From positions 32,001 to 96,000 of the IMG/VR virus record IMGVR_UViG_2695420521_000002: DNA of 64,000 nucleotides; one strand, 5' to 3'. Positions 51,376 to 58,625 of the stretch are shown in pieces. The notes below the pieces were generated by a model, which was not told the DNA's origin, did no database searches, and saw only the letters and a program-made list of their open reading frames with translations. Both the position numbers and the translations under genes were made by a program. Positions within the stretch are counted from its first letter, which is position 1. Each line of letters opens with the position of its first letter. This DNA is from a virus (lineage: Duplodnaviria; Heunggongvirae; Uroviricota; Caudoviricetes).

Positions 51376-51471
51376 AATTGTATAATAAATACATAAATGG
51401 ATCTAATAACCTCTTTTTTTTAAAGGCGAAAATATGTACCCTAAATGGGTTATAAGGCAGGTGAGGTTATA

Positions 51472-52110
51472 ATGAGAAAACTATTACTACCGTTATTATT
51501 TATGGCTGGGACTGTTAATGCAGCATCAAGTGTAAAGGAGATTTGTACCGACTACACGAAATACCTTGGGCACGTTTACGGTTTCACTGTCAGTCAAGAC
51601 GGCAAGATGAAAAAAGCTCTCCAGAATGATATGACGCGCTTAAGTTTGTCTGAAGCAATGGTTCAGCAAGAAATATATAAGGTTGCGACAGATGATGCTG
51701 CAAAAATGTATTATTCGAAATTTCTTAATCCTAATCTTAATGAATATAACCGTTCGGCTTTTAATCAGATGGTAGCGTATTGTGAAACTGCACCAGATAT
51801 GATGATTCCTAGTTGGGCTGTATTAGTGGCTAATGGAAAAATTCGCAAAGAAGACCAAGGAAAATCTTTAAGTAGCTATATAAATAGCGAACAATTTCTG
51901 AATGCGCGTGGCATGCGCACTCAAAATACTCAAGGTGCGCTTGAGCGGAGGGCTTTAGGGAGTGCTGATGCAAATGATACTGATAATTTGACCCCAGGAA
52001 TAAAAAAATGTGTTGAAACTAAGTTAGCTCTAATGAAACGGGACAGCCCTAACATTCCTGTTTCACAACTTACCGCTACGGCAACTAGTCTCTGCAAAGA
52101 CGGGCTTTAA
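51472..52110 (+). CDS. secreted protein, candidate Sim-like superinfection exclusion factor
   Basis: cleavable signal peptide MRKLLLPLLFMAGTVNA; start at ATG 51472 with GGTGAGG RBS; AT-rich; positional analogy only. Confidence 0.45.
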   Translation: MRKLLLPLLFMAGTVNAASSVKEICTDYTKYLGHVYGFTVSQDGKMKKALQNDMTRLSLSEAMVQQEIYKVATDDAAKMYYSKFLNPNLNEYNRSAFNQMVAYCETAPDMMIPSWAVLVANGKIRKEDQGKSLSSYINSEQFLNARGMRTQNTQGALERRALGSADANDTDNLTPGIKKCVETKLALMKRDSPNIPVSQLTATATSLCKDGL

Positions 52111-52139
52111 ATGTAAAGATATTCGAAGGATAGTGATAA

Positions 52140-52922
52140 GTGAAAAAATTAATGTTTAAACTATTGTTGCCGTTTGCTTTTGTTAGCAGCTATTCATTTG
52201 CAAATTCAATAGCTATTCCTAATGAGTATTCTGTTTCCGAGAAGGACTATAATTTAGTCAGAAACTATATGGTATCTGCTTCGCTTGCATATACTATGAA
52301 TACGAAAGCTACTGTTTTTAGCTTGCCATCAGATATTGTTGATTCATTCAAGAAAAATGAAATAGCAGCCTTAGATGAATGGAGTCAAACTTCTAGAATT
52401 TGGGGTAAGATCGAAAGAATAACATTGTCTAATGGGTATCCTGTTATTGAGCTTGTAAGCCCAGGACAAGCAAAATCGTCTTTGAACTATATAAGATTAG
52501 AAGATACGACTGGCAACAGTCACATAGTAAAAGAACTAACAAAAGAACAAGAAATTTATTCATTATGTTCTGGTGTTAAATTTAGACAAATTCCCACATT
52601 TCAGTATTGCTCATTCTATCTTAATCCTATTGAAGCAAATCTGGAATATGTTGGTAACTATTTCATTCCTCAATATAAAGATAATTTAATAAAGACAGTA
52701 GCCGAGAATAGAACGCTACCGATTGGCGCGTTGACAACAAGATTTATCGGGTACATTATGCTTGTTGGTATTTCTAAAAATAAAAACGATATGGAAAAAA
52801 TAAATTCGTGCACTCCATGGAAGAAAGAATGCAAATCGTATTATGAGTCAATAATAGTAAATGCAACAAAATACTATGCCGATAATGCGAAAGGCTTGGC
52901 TGATTATCTTGAAAAGCTTTAA
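52140..52922 (+). CDS. secreted protein of unknown function
   Basis: 260 aa, GTG start after AAGGA, signal peptide, AT-rich. Confidence 0.45.
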   Translation: MKKLMFKLLLPFAFVSSYSFANSIAIPNEYSVSEKDYNLVRNYMVSASLAYTMNTKATVFSLPSDIVDSFKKNEIAALDEWSQTSRIWGKIERITLSNGYPVIELVSPGQAKSSLNYIRLEDTTGNSHIVKELTKEQEIYSLCSGVKFRQIPTFQYCSFYLNPIEANLEYVGNYFIPQYKDNLIKTVAENRTLPIGALTTRFIGYIMLVGISKNKNDMEKINSCTPWKKECKSYYESIIVNATKYYADNAKGLADYLEKL

Positions 52923-52956
52923 TGCAACATAATATATCTCAAGTCATATACAGAAT

Positions 52957-52990
52957 GCGCCCGTTTGTGGGCGCTGTAGTTATTTTATCT
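52957..52990 (+). terminator. terminator-like hairpin
   Basis: gcgccc-gtttgt-gggcgc followed by T-rich tract. Confidence 0.5.
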
Positions 52991-55232: not shown

Positions 55233-58200
55233 ATGGAAAGAAAAAACGCCAACATTGACGATGTTATAAGGACAGTTGAAACCGCCAGCGCAAAAGAGCT
55301 GGAAGAGCTTGCAGGTATCCGGGAAGCTGTTGAAGATTTGAAAGGGGGACGCGTTGCAACTGTTGATCCTGTCTCTCGCAGCGTGTCGGCATTAAATCGC
55401 ACAATCGAAAATTCCCGGCCTGACTTTGTGGCCAAAGCGCCATCCGTAGACCCTATTGTTGACGCAATGAAACGGCTTAATTTAGGGGACGTTTCTCGTG
55501 TAGTTCAGGAAGATGTTGCTCAACAGGAACAGCGGGCCAAATCAACCACACCAAAGGGAAAAAAACGACGCAGGAAGGCTATACCAGAGGATGTAAAGGC
55601 ACAACGGACCGAAGCAGCCGAACACGCTCGCGAAATGTTCGGTCAAAAAGGCGGTGCGCAAAAAAGCCAAAACCAACGCGATGCGCGTGGTCGTTTTATT
55701 GGGAAGTCAGGGAGTAAGGCCGCAGCGGAAGATGCCCGTGCTGAACGTGCTGAAAAAGCCAGGCGCAAAGAGGATGATGAGCGTCTAAATGCTGAATCGG
55801 GTTTATTAAAAAAACTGTCAAAAGTAGCTGAAGGCATAGGTAACCCTTCAGAGACTCGTGCCGTCGATGCTTTAGGTTATGCCGTTGCTGGTCCATTGTG
55901 GGCAGCAGGAAAGGAGCTTGGCGGAATATCAAAAGAAGTTGGCGGTTCGCTTAATGGTGCCAGAAAGTCAATTGCCGATGTGATTCGTGGCAATGACGAT
56001 AACAGCCGTAGAAAAGGTTTTTTTAGGCGTAAATCGCAAAGTAGTGCCGATGTCGTTCAGGTTAACACCCAAAAACGGACGGTTCAGGAACTTCAGGATC
56101 AGACCAGCGAAATTAAAGAAGGCAATGACAAGATTCTCAGCGCCCTTGATCAGATAGCCAAAAACACCGGGAAAAAGAAGGGCGGCTTGCTGTCCAAATT
56201 ATTTAGCCTGTTAGGGAAGGGGGCCGGTGGTATTGCTTCCCTTATTTTTGGCCGTGGGGCACTAAAGAAAGTTGGCTCGATGGCACTAGGCGCTTTAGGT
56301 ATAAAAAAAGTTGCAAGCTTATTGGGCTTTGGTGGGAAAAAAGCTGCTGCCAAAGAAGCTGGCGAATTGGCTACTCGCGGTGCCGGAAAACTTGCAACTA
56401 AGGGATTGGGGAAACTAGGTGTTAAGGCTCTTGCAAAGGGGGCTTTACGCGCAATTCCGCTAGTCGGCACGGTGGCTGGAGGTATCTATGATGCGGTAAC
56501 CGGTTGGAATGATACAGAAGCACAACGTCGGACCTTTGGGCTTAAGGATGGGGAAGATCCATCTTTTCAGCAAAAAGCGGCTTATACACTGGCTAACGTT
56601 CTCGATATGGGAGGACTGGTATCTGGTATTAGCAGTGCCATTGGTGGCGTTCTCAAATCACTTGGATTTGAGGATATCGGCAATATGTTGCAATCATTTT
56701 CGACGGAAAGTATTGCACAGGCCATTGATAGTGGGATTACCAATTTAGAAACATACATTTCTAACCTTGGTGACACCATATCCACAACATTCAACGATTA
56801 CACAGCCAAGATTGGCGATGCTATTTCAGCTTGGTTCAGTGACACAACCAAGAGTCTGAACGAAAAATTAGACGCCATCAAAGACTTCTTTACTGTCGAT
56901 AACCTGAAAAAGGTTTTCAGTGATTCAATTGATAGTGCAATTGATTTCATTAAGAACCCTGGGAAATACATTAAAGAGGCTGGCAGTAATTTATGGCATA
57001 CCGTAAAAGAACATGCGGGCGAGGCAATGGATAAGACAGCAGATGCTGTTATTCAGAGTACCCCTCTTGGCTTAGTTGCATCAACATTAGTCAATAAAGC
57101 GAATGCGAAAGAGGTCACGCCTGAATTAAAAACACCTGCTAAAGAAAGTCAGGAGAGGAATACTCCTAAGTCTGAAGATATCCCTAAAAAGGCTAATATT
57201 GTCACTCGTGTTGTAAATGCATCCCTGGATACGGCTCAGAATGGCAATAAAATAGTTAAAGAGACAGCCAATCAGATTATCAATGCAAATGCCGTAGAAA
57301 CAGGAAATAAAGCGGCACAAACAATTGATGCTGCTTTGGGCCAGTCTGCTACAGGCAAGGAGGAAGCATTAAGTGCATATGAGATAGATAAACGTCGATT
57401 TAACAACGGCAAGGATGTTTCTTTGCCAAAATTAAATGCTGCCGGATACCAATGGATTTCTGACAATGCCGATTATTTTGATGAGCTTGAACGTAAGTAT
57501 GGGCTTGAAAAAGGGATTCTGTCAGCAGTTGCATCCGCAGAGTCTAGTGCTGGCCAGAGAACTGGAAATCCAGTAGACAAAAACGGAAACAAACTTTCAT
57601 CTGCCCTTGGGGCTTTTCAGATCACTAAAGGTACAAGGGAGGATCTTGGACTCAGCGATGCTGATGCCATGGATACACGAAAAGCAGCTGATGGTGCCGC
57701 CAGATACCTAAGTATGCTGATGAACCGTTATAACGGTGATCAGGGGCGTGCAATAGCTGCCTATCATGCTGGTATGGGGCATGTTGATAAGGGGAGAGTA
57801 GTCGCCGGTACCGGCGAATATGTGACTCGTGTCAGAGGGTATCAGCAGATGCTCAATAATGGTGCCGTTTATGGCTCTAAGGTAGATCATAGCGCACCAG
57901 CAATTTACGAAAAGATACCTGATAACGCCGTTATCGATCAGTCTACTGGTCTGGCGTTTACCCCTGGTGATAGCCCGTTTGAGAAAGGCGGTCTGGTAGA
58001 CAAAATCGGCAATGCTGTTGGCGTTAACGATCTGGTCAACAAATTCATGAATGGCCGGGGGATGCGTCGGGAAGTCGTCCAGGGAACCCTCGAAGAACGT
58101 GCACGAGGAAGGGGAACCGCAACGGCAGCTGGCAATGTGTATGTTGACACACCTATGCCAGTTGAAGAGGCACGTCCGGTGGCCAACAACTCAAGTTACT

Positions 58201-58625
58201 TTGACCAGCTCGGCGCACAAATGGGGATTGATGGACTGTATGACAAACTCATTAATGCCCGGGGAATGCGCTCAAATAATTCTCCTCAACCAGCTTCCAC
58301 GTCCCAGATGACGACTGTCGCCAACGATTTGCAGCAACCAACCGGTCGTATGCAGATAGACGGGCAGGTTATTAGTGACCTTGGCGGTTCCGGTGCCAAG
58401 CCGACAATGCAGTTGGCTGATAATACCGTTTCACTTGATGGTGAAACGAAGCGGCTGTTTGCGCAGATGACCTCATTGCTTGCCAGGATTGAAGAGCACA
58501 CCAAAGACTCGGCGAAAGGCCAGGGAACTGTCGTAAAGGTCAGCACGCCTCAGCCGGGCGTTATGCGCACGGTACCACTGTCAATTGATGATCCGTTGAT
58601 GAATGACTACGCGAGAGTTGATTGA
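55233..58625 (+). CDS. sit: Sit-like tape-measure / injection protein with lytic transglycosylase domain
   Basis: 1130 aa; central coiled-coil and Gly-rich segments; SLT-like motifs AESSAG...GAFQI...AYHAG near residues 760-850. Confidence 0.8.
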   Translation: MERKNANIDDVIRTVETASAKELEELAGIREAVEDLKGGRVATVDPVSRSVSALNRTIENSRPDFVAKAPSVDPIVDAMKRLNLGDVSRVVQEDVAQQEQRAKSTTPKGKKRRRKAIPEDVKAQRTEAAEHAREMFGQKGGAQKSQNQRDARGRFIGKSGSKAAAEDARAERAEKARRKEDDERLNAESGLLKKLSKVAEGIGNPSETRAVDALGYAVAGPLWAAGKELGGISKEVGGSLNGARKSIADVIRGNDDNSRRKGFFRRKSQSSADVVQVNTQKRTVQELQDQTSEIKEGNDKILSALDQIAKNTGKKKGGLLSKLFSLLGKGAGGIASLIFGRGALKKVGSMALGALGIKKVASLLGFGGKKAAAKEAGELATRGAGKLATKGLGKLGVKALAKGALRAIPLVGTVAGGIYDAVTGWNDTEAQRRTFGLKDGEDPSFQQKAAYTLANVLDMGGLVSGISSAIGGVLKSLGFEDIGNMLQSFSTESIAQAIDSGITNLETYISNLGDTISTTFNDYTAKIGDAISAWFSDTTKSLNEKLDAIKDFFTVDNLKKVFSDSIDSAIDFIKNPGKYIKEAGSNLWHTVKEHAGEAMDKTADAVIQSTPLGLVASTLVNKANAKEVTPELKTPAKESQERNTPKSEDIPKKANIVTRVVNASLDTAQNGNKIVKETANQIINANAVETGNKAAQTIDAALGQSATGKEEALSAYEIDKRRFNNGKDVSLPKLNAAGYQWISDNADYFDELERKYGLEKGILSAVASAESSAGQRTGNPVDKNGNKLSSALGAFQITKGTREDLGLSDADAMDTRKAADGAARYLSMLMNRYNGDQGRAIAAYHAGMGHVDKGRVVAGTGEYVTRVRGYQQMLNNGAVYGSKVDHSAPAIYEKIPDNAVIDQSTGLAFTPGDSPFEKGGLVDKIGNAVGVNDLVNKFMNGRGMRREVVQGTLEERARGRGTATAAGNVYVDTPMPVEEARPVANNSSYFDQLGAQMGIDGLYDKLINARGMRSNNSPQPASTSQMTTVANDLQQPTGRMQIDGQVISDLGGSGAKPTMQLADNTVSLDGETKRLFAQMTSLLARIEEHTKDSAKGQGTVVKVSTPQPGVMRTVPLSIDDPLMNDYARVD

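What the first reader, a model, noticed from the sequence alone, without database searches (positions are those of the whole stretch)
51376..52925. AT-rich pair of secreted proteins at the sim position
Two genes with cleavable signal peptides are transcribed divergently from the immI leader, with a TATAAT next to the operator. The first product (about 25 kDa precursor) fits what I recall of the P1 Sim exclusion protein, but the sequences are unfamiliar and AT-rich, so they may be a distinct exclusion or conversion module.
Basis: inference. Interest (0 to 1): 0.45.

Follow-up and report, generated by a model that had tools for sequence, protein, structure and literature searches.

The report
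Rare variant of P1 sim operon
This is a rare version of phage P1's "sim" operon, two exported proteins thought to stop related phages from injecting DNA; its first protein carries a short copy of a segment of the phage's own tail tape-measure (injection) protein, which suggests a testable way the block could work.

Summary
Two co-directional genes (51472-52110, 212 aa; 52140-52922, 260 aa) lie between the C1 operator/c4 leader and pmgC of a P1-like phage-plasmid. They run divergently from immI, have 35% G+C against 47% for the window, and each begins with a Sec-type signal peptide.

The second product is the SimC homologue (33% identity to P1 SimC, E 3e-46, same PHROG, four conserved cysteines). 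The first is the intact form of SimA, of which P1 keeps only a 52-aa stump. There is no simB. So this is a divergent allele of the known sim operon, not a separate kind of module.

The combination is rare: 3 of 5,426 complete E. coli genomes, 1 of 451 matching PLSDB plasmids, and 0 of 57 IMG/VR loci. The slot itself is already published as hypervariable.

One feature appears unreported. A poorly modelled linker of SimA-family proteins holds a peptide homologous to Sit residues ~935-972 (profile E 1.4e-7, the only hit among 707 window ORFs).

Best explanation: a periplasmic superinfection-exclusion pair acting on Sit-dependent DNA entry. The function is inferred, not shown. SimC's fold could not be modelled.

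The parts
51092..51177 (-). C4 antisense RNA of immI. Context: it defines the divergent leader.
   Evidence: Rfam RF01695, 69.6 bits, E 6.7e-13. The a1b1 target element lies at 51246-51298 (RF03163).
51359..51375 (-). C1 repressor operator, equivalent to P1 Op51/Oc4, lying between the divergent c4 and sim promoters.
   Evidence: AATGCTCTAATAAATTT, one mismatch to the 17-bp consensus. It aligns with the Oc4 annotated in P1.
51378..51407 (+). Candidate sim promoter region. The alternative is TTGTAT (51378-83), 18 nt, TCTAAT (51402-07), which corresponds to the PsimA predicted in the P1 record. GATC at 51400-03 overlaps that -10.
   Evidence: Sequence, alignment with P1, Ro157c2 and pRHBSTW-00312_2 and the P1 annotation. 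The consensus scan did not call either promoter. Function is not shown.
51472..52110 (+). ORF1, a full-length SimA-family protein of 212 aa. Parts: signal peptide aa 1-17; conserved all-helical N-domain to ~aa 130; linker of low model confidence; C-terminal two-helix hairpin with Cys180 and Cys208.
   Evidence: phrog_3933 E 6e-87. Homologues occur only in P1-like elements of E. coli, Salmonella and Klebsiella. Family alignment. AlphaFold model with mean pLDDT 81. dN/dS 0.04-0.18.
51886..51990 (+). Sit-like peptide inside ORF1 (aa 139-173, ..EQFLNARGMRTQNTQGALERRALG..). It lies in the low-confidence linker.
   Evidence: BLASTP against the window's Sit gives E 9e-6. Family members reach E 8e-9. 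A SimA-tail HMM hits Sit alone among 707 window ORFs, E 1.4e-7. Block-mean pLDDT of the linker is 48-66.
52140..52922 (+). ORF2, a divergent SimC homologue of 260 aa. Signal peptide aa 1-21; Cys143, Cys157, Cys224 and Cys231 are conserved across the family.
   Evidence: 33% identity to P1 SimC, E 3e-46. phrog_14355 E 1e-39, the same family as P1 SimC at E 5e-191. Family alignment.
52957..52974 (+). Hairpin terminator that closes the operon, GCGCCC-GTTTGT-GGGCGC followed by a T-rich tail.
   Evidence: Terminator scan. All cassette types rejoin conserved sequence at about 53010, just before pmgC.
58041..58115 (+). Motif 1 in the tape-measure/injection protein Sit (aa 937-961, KFMNGRGMRREVVQGTLEERARGRG), the segment that SimA resembles. 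It lies outside the finding's coordinates.
   Evidence: It is conserved between the E. coli and Salmonella Newport Sit proteins, although the neighbouring regions differ strongly.
58248..58280 (+). Motif 2 in Sit (about aa 1006-1016, KLINARGMRSN), a second shorter copy of the N-x-x-G-M-R motif.
   Evidence: domain E 0.54 on its own. It is absent from the Newport-type Sit.

Best explanation
The region is a rare allelic form of the P1 sim ('superimmunity', that is superinfection exclusion) operon: an intact simA followed directly by a divergent simC, with no simB.

Proposed working, step by step:
1. Transcription starts next to the C1 operator shared with the divergent c4 promoter, so C1 probably modulates it (inferred).
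2. Both products are exported by Sec and their signal peptides are cleaved. The pairs of cysteines form disulfides in the periplasm (inferred from sequence). From my own recollection of Maillou & Dreiseikelmann 1990, which I did not check here, P1 Sim was shown to be processed.
3. The SimC-like protein is the exclusion effector. After a P1-like phage adsorbs and contracts, it blocks passage of the DNA across the periplasm and inner membrane (inferred by homology to P1 SimC; the phenotype is recalled from Kliem & Dreiseikelmann 1989, not checked here).
4. SimA presents, on a flexible linker, a peptide derived from the C-terminal part of Sit, the tape-measure/injection transglycosylase that is ejected into the periplasm. 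It would act as a decoy for whatever Sit binds there, or would bind Sit or SimC itself, at the same entry step (hypothesis).
5. The 33% identity to P1 SimC, with almost no intermediates, suggests a different exclusion specificity (hypothesis).
For: Position: the two genes occupy the interval that holds simA-simB-simC in P1.

Homology: ORF2 matches P1 SimC at E 3e-46 over about 95% of its length, with four invariant Cys, and both fall in one PHROG. ORF1 matches phrog_3933 over positions 1-180 of 213, while P1 SimA covers only positions 1-41.

A three-gene operon with an intact SimA (179 aa) plus SimB plus SimC exists in a 96-kb contig (L083). SimA, SimB and SimC therefore form a natural unit, and P1's simA is a truncation.

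Export signals and even cysteine counts. Purifying selection.

Sit-like peptide. In Ro157c2, simA and sit share 73% DNA identity over 60 nt, E 3.6e-8, which points to common descent of that segment rather than convergence. The peptide sits in a poorly modelled, probably flexible linker.

Every alternative cassette at this slot also encodes at least one exported or envelope protein; some carry further genes without a signal peptide.

Precedent: T4 Imm excludes by binding the tape-measure protein (bioRxiv 10.64898/2026.03.06.709160). Sit is taken to be the P1 tape measure with an SLT domain near its C-terminus (PMC9024508).
Against: No phenotype is available for this allele.

P1's own sim works with simA truncated, so SimA is not needed for SimC-type exclusion, and its role is open.

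From my memory, exclusion by P1 sim is seen mainly when sim is in multiple copies. The operator next to the promoter suggests repression in a lysogen.

The variable residues of the N-x-x-G-M-R motif do not track the Sit allele of the same element, so there is no evidence of co-evolution.

There are no hits in PADLOC, Pfam or NCBIfam.
Confidence: 0.6

Rival explanations
1. The pair are lysogenic-conversion envelope proteins that change the host surface or periplasm for reasons unrelated to phage entry, such as serum or colicin resistance or stress tolerance. The name 'sim' would then not apply to this allele.
For: No family or domain with a known activity matches either protein. The slot carries unrelated envelope genes in other elements, for example a lipoprotein plus a DUF5384 protein in P7 and SJ46. 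The region has low G+C and is a cargo-like hypervariable region (PMC9603915).
Against: ORF2 is a full-length homologue of the one protein at this slot that the P1 record annotates as superimmunity. The similarity of SimA to an injection protein points to the entry step. The family is confined to P1-like elements, as expected for a function directed at P1-like phages.
Confidence: 0.15
2. The module is an exclusion operon, but SimA works as a periplasmic inhibitor of Sit's lytic transglycosylase domain rather than as a decoy. That would resemble T4 Sp acting on the gp5 lysozyme, or small helical T6SS immunity proteins. The Sit-like peptide would only tether SimA to Sit.
Confidence: 0.12
3. The Sit-like stretch in SimA is a leftover of an old recombination between sit and simA, which lie 4 kb apart. 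It has no present function, and SimA's activity, if any, lies in its conserved N-domain.
For: The stretch is short. Downstream of N-x-x-G-M-R the family tails are highly variable, and several members lack the VQGTLEERARG part. There is no co-variation with the resident Sit. DNA similarity is detectable in only one lineage.
Against: The N-x-x-G-M-R core is nearly invariant across members that are only about 50% identical overall, and it stays in the same place, a linker between two folded parts. The matching Sit segment is itself one of the best conserved parts of the Sit C-terminal region between E. coli and Salmonella types.
Confidence: 0.3
4. The genes are decaying cargo with no function, or are annotation artefacts.
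For: The region is AT-rich and the combination is rare.
Against: The reading frames are intact in four independent records. dN/dS is 0.04-0.2 apart from one ORF2 pair with only 4 substitutions. There are ribosome-binding sites, a terminator and strong PHROG matches.
Confidence: 0.03

Closest known systems
P1 SimC (P1_gp041; 'sim region ORF 2' of M34382), phrog_14355
   Same: Same genomic slot and same orientation relative to Op51/c4. Similar length (260 against 264 aa). N-terminal signal peptide. Alignable over about 95% of the length, with four invariant cysteines and motifs such as KDY-LVR, PSD/E-V--F--NE-AA and CTPWK--C.
   Different: Only 33% identical. Almost no intermediates were found: the family has three allele classes in all among 1.84 billion representative proteins. 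It follows simA directly, without simB. This allele is in 1 of the 141 SimC-bearing PLSDB plasmids.
P1 SimA (P1_gp043, 52 aa) and the 'SimA domain protein' family (phrog_3933)
   Same: The first ~40 residues (signal peptide plus the start of the mature protein) and the upstream leader are 93-97% identical.
   Different: P1 SimA ends after 52 aa, because the P1-type simB-simC cassette begins inside the gene (breakpoint near window 51585). Here the gene is intact at 212 aa, with the helical domain, the Sit-like linker and a C-terminal disulfide hairpin.
Three-gene sim operon of GCA_005690115.1, contig AADOKG010000015 (locus L083)
   Same: Intact SimA with the Sit-like motif, followed by a SimC-family protein in the same slot.
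   Different: That operon keeps a SimB (61% identical to P1 SimB) between the two genes. Its SimC is a third allele, 35% identical to ORF2 and 40% to P1 SimC.
T4 Imm and Sp; HK97 gp15 (exclusion proteins that block DNA entry)
   Same: Same proposed logic: phage-encoded envelope proteins that stop a superinfecting genome after adsorption. T4 Imm has now been shown to bind the tape-measure protein (bioRxiv 10.64898/2026.03.06.709160).
   Different: No sequence or fold relationship. Imm and gp15 are inner-membrane proteins, whereas the products here look soluble and periplasmic. No binding has been shown here.
P7/SJ46 upf50.5 and upf50.0 (alternative cassette at the same slot)
   Same: Two exported proteins between Op(c4) and pmgC, transcribed the same way.
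   Different: Unrelated sequences: a lipoprotein with weak TraT-like similarity and a DUF5384 protein. They lack SimA altogether, and divergence from the window starts right at the operator.

Membership tests
SimC family (P1 superimmunity protein; phrog_14355) | Full-length sequence homology to P1 SimC | tested here: met
   BLASTP 33% identity over 248 aa, E 3e-46. phrog_14355 E 1.1e-39 against 4.6e-191 for P1 SimC itself.
SimC family (P1 superimmunity protein; phrog_14355) | Cleavable N-terminal signal peptide and periplasmic location | tested here: inconclusive
   The sequence has the n/h/c regions and SFA|N at -3/-1, and four conserved Cys in the mature part. No predictor and no experiment were available.
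SimC family (P1 superimmunity protein; phrog_14355) | Location between the C1 operator/c4 leader and pmgC, divergent from immI | tested here: met
SimC family (P1 superimmunity protein; phrog_14355) | Confers exclusion of superinfecting P1 after adsorption | not testable with these tools
   Needs plating, adsorption and DNA-entry assays.
P1-type sim operon (simA-simB-simC) | Presence of simB between simA and simC | tested here: not met
   Only 29 nt separate ORF1 and ORF2. There is no SimB similarity in the window module. SimB is present in P1 and in L083.
SimA-domain family (phrog_3933) | Homology across the conserved N-domain and the N-x-x-G-M-R motif | tested here: met
   phrog_3933 E 6e-87, profile positions 1-180 of 213. 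45 invariant columns in 16 sequences.
Tape-measure-directed exclusion proteins (works like T4 Imm) | Direct binding to, or competition with, the tape-measure protein | not testable with these tools
   There is only a sequence resemblance of SimA aa 139-173 to Sit aa ~935-972. No complex prediction or binding assay was possible.
Known anti-phage defence systems (PADLOC) | Match to any catalogued defence protein model | tested here: not met
   No hit for ORF1, ORF2, P1 SimB or P1 SimC at E up to 1.

The most novel reading that the evidence does not exclude
Full-length SimA is a periplasmic molecular mimic of the phage's own tape-measure/injection protein. Its flexible N-x-x-G-M-R...VQGTLEERARG peptide would compete with the ejected C-terminal region of Sit for a host or phage partner needed to open the inner-membrane channel. 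Exclusion at the sim locus would then work by decoying the injection machinery, and the swappable second gene (SimC alleles, phrog_3429 proteins) would set specificity. That would give the first mechanism for Sim, which to my knowledge has been unexplained since the 1980s, and a new class of exclusion protein.
Probability: 0.2. Interest if true: 0.7.

Novelty: new variant of a known kind. Interest (0 to 1): 0.42.

Why it matters
To my knowledge, how P1 Sim blocks infection has never been worked out.

This variant, together with the three-gene operon in L083, shows that the textbook P1 operon is a truncated form. In P1 the first gene has lost everything but its signal peptide region.

The intact first gene carries a recognisable piece of Sit, the protein that must enter the periplasm first during injection. 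That turns a vague 'blocks DNA entry' into specific experiments on a defined 35-residue peptide and a defined target region of Sit.

It also documents that one slot of P1-like phage-plasmids, which are common in clinical E. coli and Salmonella, cycles through at least five unrelated cassettes, each encoding at least one exported or envelope protein. That is the pattern expected from an arms race over superinfection, and it bears on which phage-plasmids can invade which lysogens.

If no exclusion phenotype is found, the finding is simply a rare allele in a known hypervariable region.

Tried and rejected
1. Fold assignment for ORF2. AlphaFold2 with the only usable alignment (6 rows) gave pLDDT 41, so I did not run a fold search on it. 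Sequence and profile searches of the PDB found nothing.

3. Pfam, NCBIfam and PADLOC gave no significant hits for either protein, nor (NCBIfam, PADLOC) for P1 SimB or SimC.

4. Co-evolution of the SimA motif with the resident Sit. Three hand-picked pairs looked matched, but the survey of about 60 IMG/VR loci showed NAPGMR-type SimA mostly paired with NSPGMR or NGRGMR Sit motifs. I dropped the idea.

5. Linkage of this SimC allele to the window's unusual Sit SLT-domain allele. That SLT allele is in at least 56 plasmids that carry other sim types. I dropped this as well.

6. Relationship between SimC and the ~158-aa proteins that usually follow SimA. The profile-profile comparison aligns only the signal peptides (probability 6%), so they are unrelated.

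7. Recent gene conversion between sit and ORF1 in this window. There is no DNA similarity here; it shows only in the Ro157c2 lineage.

8. The word-indexed homologue search for ORF2 found only its own cluster. The exhaustive search showed that the family really is tiny, and the species-representative genome scan found one E. coli locus.

9. The Lobocka 2004 P1 genome paper could not be read. The classical Sim papers are subscription-journal papers that I did not expect the library to hold, so I did not look them up. Statements about the Sim phenotype rest on my memory and on the P1 record's annotation.
Full report
**What the window is.** The window is a P1-like (Punavirus) phage-plasmid. Around the finding the gene order is kilA-like, ant, icd, C4 RNA and its leader on the minus strand. 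On the plus strand come the two genes in question, then pmgC, tub, pmgB and sit. Rfam places the C4 antisense RNA at 51092-51177 and its a1b1 target element at 51246-51298, both on the minus strand. The 17-bp C1 operator consensus matches with one mismatch at 51359-51375, where P1 has Op51/Oc4. The window holds 15 operator-like sites against 0.36 expected by chance.

**The observation.** Two plus-strand ORFs lie at 51445/51472-52110 and 52140-52922.
- For ORF1 the downstream ATG at 51472 is the likely start. A GGTGAGG lies 5 nt upstream of it, PGAP uses it in three near-identical records, and most homologues start there.
- Both products begin with a basic n-region, a hydrophobic core and small residues at -3/-1 (VNA|A and SFA|N). 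There is no lipobox. Each mature part has four cysteines.
- ORF1 has no second strongly hydrophobic stretch. ORF2 has one borderline stretch (KD 1.58, aa 193-211).
- G+C is 40% for ORF1, 33% for ORF2 and 35% for the module, against 47% for the window.
- TATAAT is at 51381-51386, 5 nt from the operator. It is TTTAAT in P1 and ATTAGT in Ro157c2. A downstream TCTAAT (51402-51407), the -10 of the PsimA predicted in the P1 record, is conserved. The simple promoter scan called neither.
- A G+C-rich hairpin with a T-rich tail lies at 52957-52974.
- The few substitutions against three other copies are mostly synonymous. dN/dS is 0.04-0.18 for ORF1 and 0.14-0.20 for ORF2, except one ORF2 pair with only 4 substitutions at 0.79; pmgC gives 0.03-0.08.

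**What the two genes are.** In P1 the same interval holds simA (52 aa), simB (111 aa) and simC (264 aa), annotated as superimmunity functions.
- ORF2 aligns with P1 SimC over about 95% of its length: 33% identity, E 3e-46. Both proteins fall in phrog_14355, and the four cysteines of the mature protein are invariant across the family.
- ORF1 is not SimC. Its leader and first ~110 coding bases are 96.8% identical to P1 DNA through simA. It matches phrog_3933 over profile positions 1-180 of 213, whereas P1 SimA covers only positions 1-41.
- The alignment of window, P1, Ro157c2 and pRHBSTW-00312_2 shows P1 diverging inside the gene near window 51585. P1's simA is therefore a stump left where the P1-type simB-simC cassette begins.
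- There is no simB here; the two genes are 29 nt apart.

The record M34382 'sim region ORF 2' is the one that ORF2 matches.

**How common it is.**
- The leader and start of simA match 451 PLSDB plasmids and 435 of 5,426 complete E. coli genomes. The full two-gene module is in one plasmid and three genomes, at 97.5-98.7% identity.
- Of 141 plasmids with a SimC-like gene, 140 carry the P1-type allele and one carries this allele.
- An exhaustive HMMER scan of 1.84 billion representative proteins found only six hits. They fall into three allele classes: this one, the P1 type, and P0031. A scan of one genome per species found a single E. coli locus.
- Full-length SimA-family proteins occur only in P1-like elements of E. 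coli, Salmonella and Klebsiella.

**The slot is a cassette exchange site.** I classified the interval between simA and pmgC in 57 IMG/VR loci plus reference records. It contains one of the following:
- full-length SimA plus a ~158-aa exported protein (phrog_3429); this is the commonest form;
- a 163-172-aa SimA plus a 168-aa relative of that protein plus an SH3-domain protein;
- the P1 form, with the SimA stump plus SimB plus SimC;
- the present form, rarely.

P7 and SJ46 have neither gene. They carry a lipoprotein and a DUF5384 protein, both with signal peptides, and their divergence from the window starts right at the operator. All types rejoin conserved sequence at about 53010. ORF1 here is 98% identical to that of pRHBSTW-00312_2, which has a different downstream cassette; the similarity ends 18 nt after the ORF1 stop. 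ORF2 is thus a separately exchanged unit.

The published survey of P1-like phage-plasmids already lists simABC as one of eight low-G+C hypervariable regions (PMC9603915). A P1 CRISPRi screen scores simA, simB and simC as non-essential (PMC10695390).

The contig that encodes P0031 carries an intact SimA (179 aa), a SimB (61% identical to P1 SimB) and a SimC (40% to P1 SimC, 35% to ORF2) in the same slot. An intact simA-simB-simC operon therefore exists. The P1 form and the window form are two different reductions of it.

**A Sit-derived peptide in SimA.** ORF1 shows a local match to the window's own Sit, the 1,130-aa tape-measure/injection transglycosylase: FLNARGMRTQNTQGALERRALG against FMNGRGMRREVVQGTLEERARGRG at Sit 937-961, E 9e-6. 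Sit has a second, shorter copy at about 1006-1016.
- Other family members match better, with E down to 8e-9, and P0006 extends the similarity further.
- An HMM of the SimA-family tails hits Sit alone among all 707 stop-to-stop ORFs of the window (E 1.4e-7). An HMM of Sit 905-1030 from four phages finds ORF1 at E 4e-6.
- In Ro157c2, simA and sit share 73% DNA identity over 60 nt (E 3.6e-8), while the window shows no DNA similarity. This argues for old common descent of the segment rather than recent conversion.
- In the AlphaFold model of mature ORF1 (mean pLDDT 81), residues 1-110 form a confident helical domain and residues 158-192 form a helical hairpin holding Cys180 and Cys208. The Sit-like peptide lies in the low-confidence linker between them.
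- The N-x-x-G-M-R core is nearly invariant in a family that is only about 50% identical overall, but the tails beyond it vary widely.
- The corresponding Sit segment is well conserved between the E. coli and Salmonella Newport Sit proteins although neighbouring parts differ strongly.
- I tested whether the variable motif residues track the Sit allele of the same element. They do not.
- A full-text search on simA, Sit, phage P1 and tape measure returned no paper that looked relevant to such a similarity; I read none of the hits in full.

**Mechanism.** Shown here:
- homology of ORF2 to SimC and of ORF1 to SimA, and the position of the module;
- export-type N-termini and purifying selection;
- the Sit-like peptide.

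Inferred:
- Both proteins are periplasmic and disulfide-bonded.
- The SimC-like protein blocks DNA entry of P1-like phages after adsorption. This rests on the P1 Sim phenotype as I recall it from Kliem & Dreiseikelmann 1989 and Maillou & Dreiseikelmann 1990, which I could not check here.
- C1 bound at 51359-51375 dampens transcription.
- SimA interferes with the same step by mimicking Sit.

Sit is held to be the P1 tape measure, with the SLT domain at ~750-900 supplying the muralytic activity (PMC9024508). Its C-terminal region should therefore be exposed in the periplasm early in infection. A direct precedent for an exclusion protein acting on a tape measure is T4 Imm (bioRxiv 10.64898/2026.03.06.709160).

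Points against:
- P1's sim functions with simA truncated.
- There is no co-variation between the SimA motif and the resident Sit.
- Structure gives no support. The ORF2 model was unusable (pLDDT 41), and ORF1's fold matches nothing.

**Verdict.** This is a rare, divergent allele of a known operon in a region already known to be hypervariable. The part that raises interest above routine is the tape-measure-like peptide in intact SimA, together with the demonstration that P1's simA is a remnant. Both give a concrete experimental handle on how Sim works. I put the sim-operon identity at about 0.95, an exclusion function for this allele at about 0.6, and the decoy mechanism at about 0.2.

Noticed in passing
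window 50203-50205 (minus strand), within ant1/ant2 at 49792-50826: The antirepressor gene has an in-frame TAG at codon 208, where P1 Ant1 has Ser. The rest of the protein is 90% identical to P1 Ant1. Ant1 and Ant2 are therefore probably truncated before the KilAC domain in this element.
   Followed up: partly
window 57300-57950 (Sit aa ~700-900): The SLT (lytic transglycosylase) domain of this Sit is a very different allele from that of P1 and Ro157c2, while the flanking parts are nearly identical, so sit is mosaic. The allele is in at least 56 PLSDB plasmids and is not tied to the sim type.
   Followed up: partly
L012 3858-4922 (phage P7) and L013 3858-4922 (SJ46): At the sim slot these phages carry a signal-peptide lipoprotein with weak similarity to the TraT surface-exclusion protein (Pfam PF05818, E 7e-5, below cut-off) and a DUF5384 protein. 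The RefSeq product name 'DNA methyltransferase' for the lipoprotein looks like a mis-annotation.
   Followed up: partly
L002 4872-5348, L003 3749-4225, L006 3759-4232, L007 3581-4087: A ~158-168-aa exported protein family (phrog_3429), with a conserved C-terminal DGC-K motif and a WY-FW motif, is the usual partner of full-length SimA. It is unrelated to SimC and has no Pfam match.
   Followed up: partly
L083 3059-4795 (GCA_005690115.1, contig AADOKG010000015): This is a complete simA (179 aa, intact) - simB - simC operon carrying a third SimC allele. It implies that P1's annotated simA is a truncated remnant.
   Followed up: yes
window 51400-51403: A GATC (Dam) site overlaps the conserved TCTAAT hexamer that the P1 record calls the -10 of PsimA, so sim transcription might be sensitive to methylation state.
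   Followed up: no
L001 4308-5430 (P1 simB, simC): P1 SimC also matches phrog_13333 (E 7e-9, aa 58-169) and SimB matches phrog_13054 (E 3e-23). More distant relatives therefore exist in other phages and could deepen an alignment for modelling SimC.
   Followed up: no
L005 (E. coli ST2747 chromosome NZ_CP007392, 2227505-2235204): The closest copy of the module (98.7%) lies in a record labelled chromosome. There the neighbouring pmgB-like and sit genes are annotated as frameshifted, which suggests an integrated, decaying P1-like element or an assembly problem.
   Followed up: no
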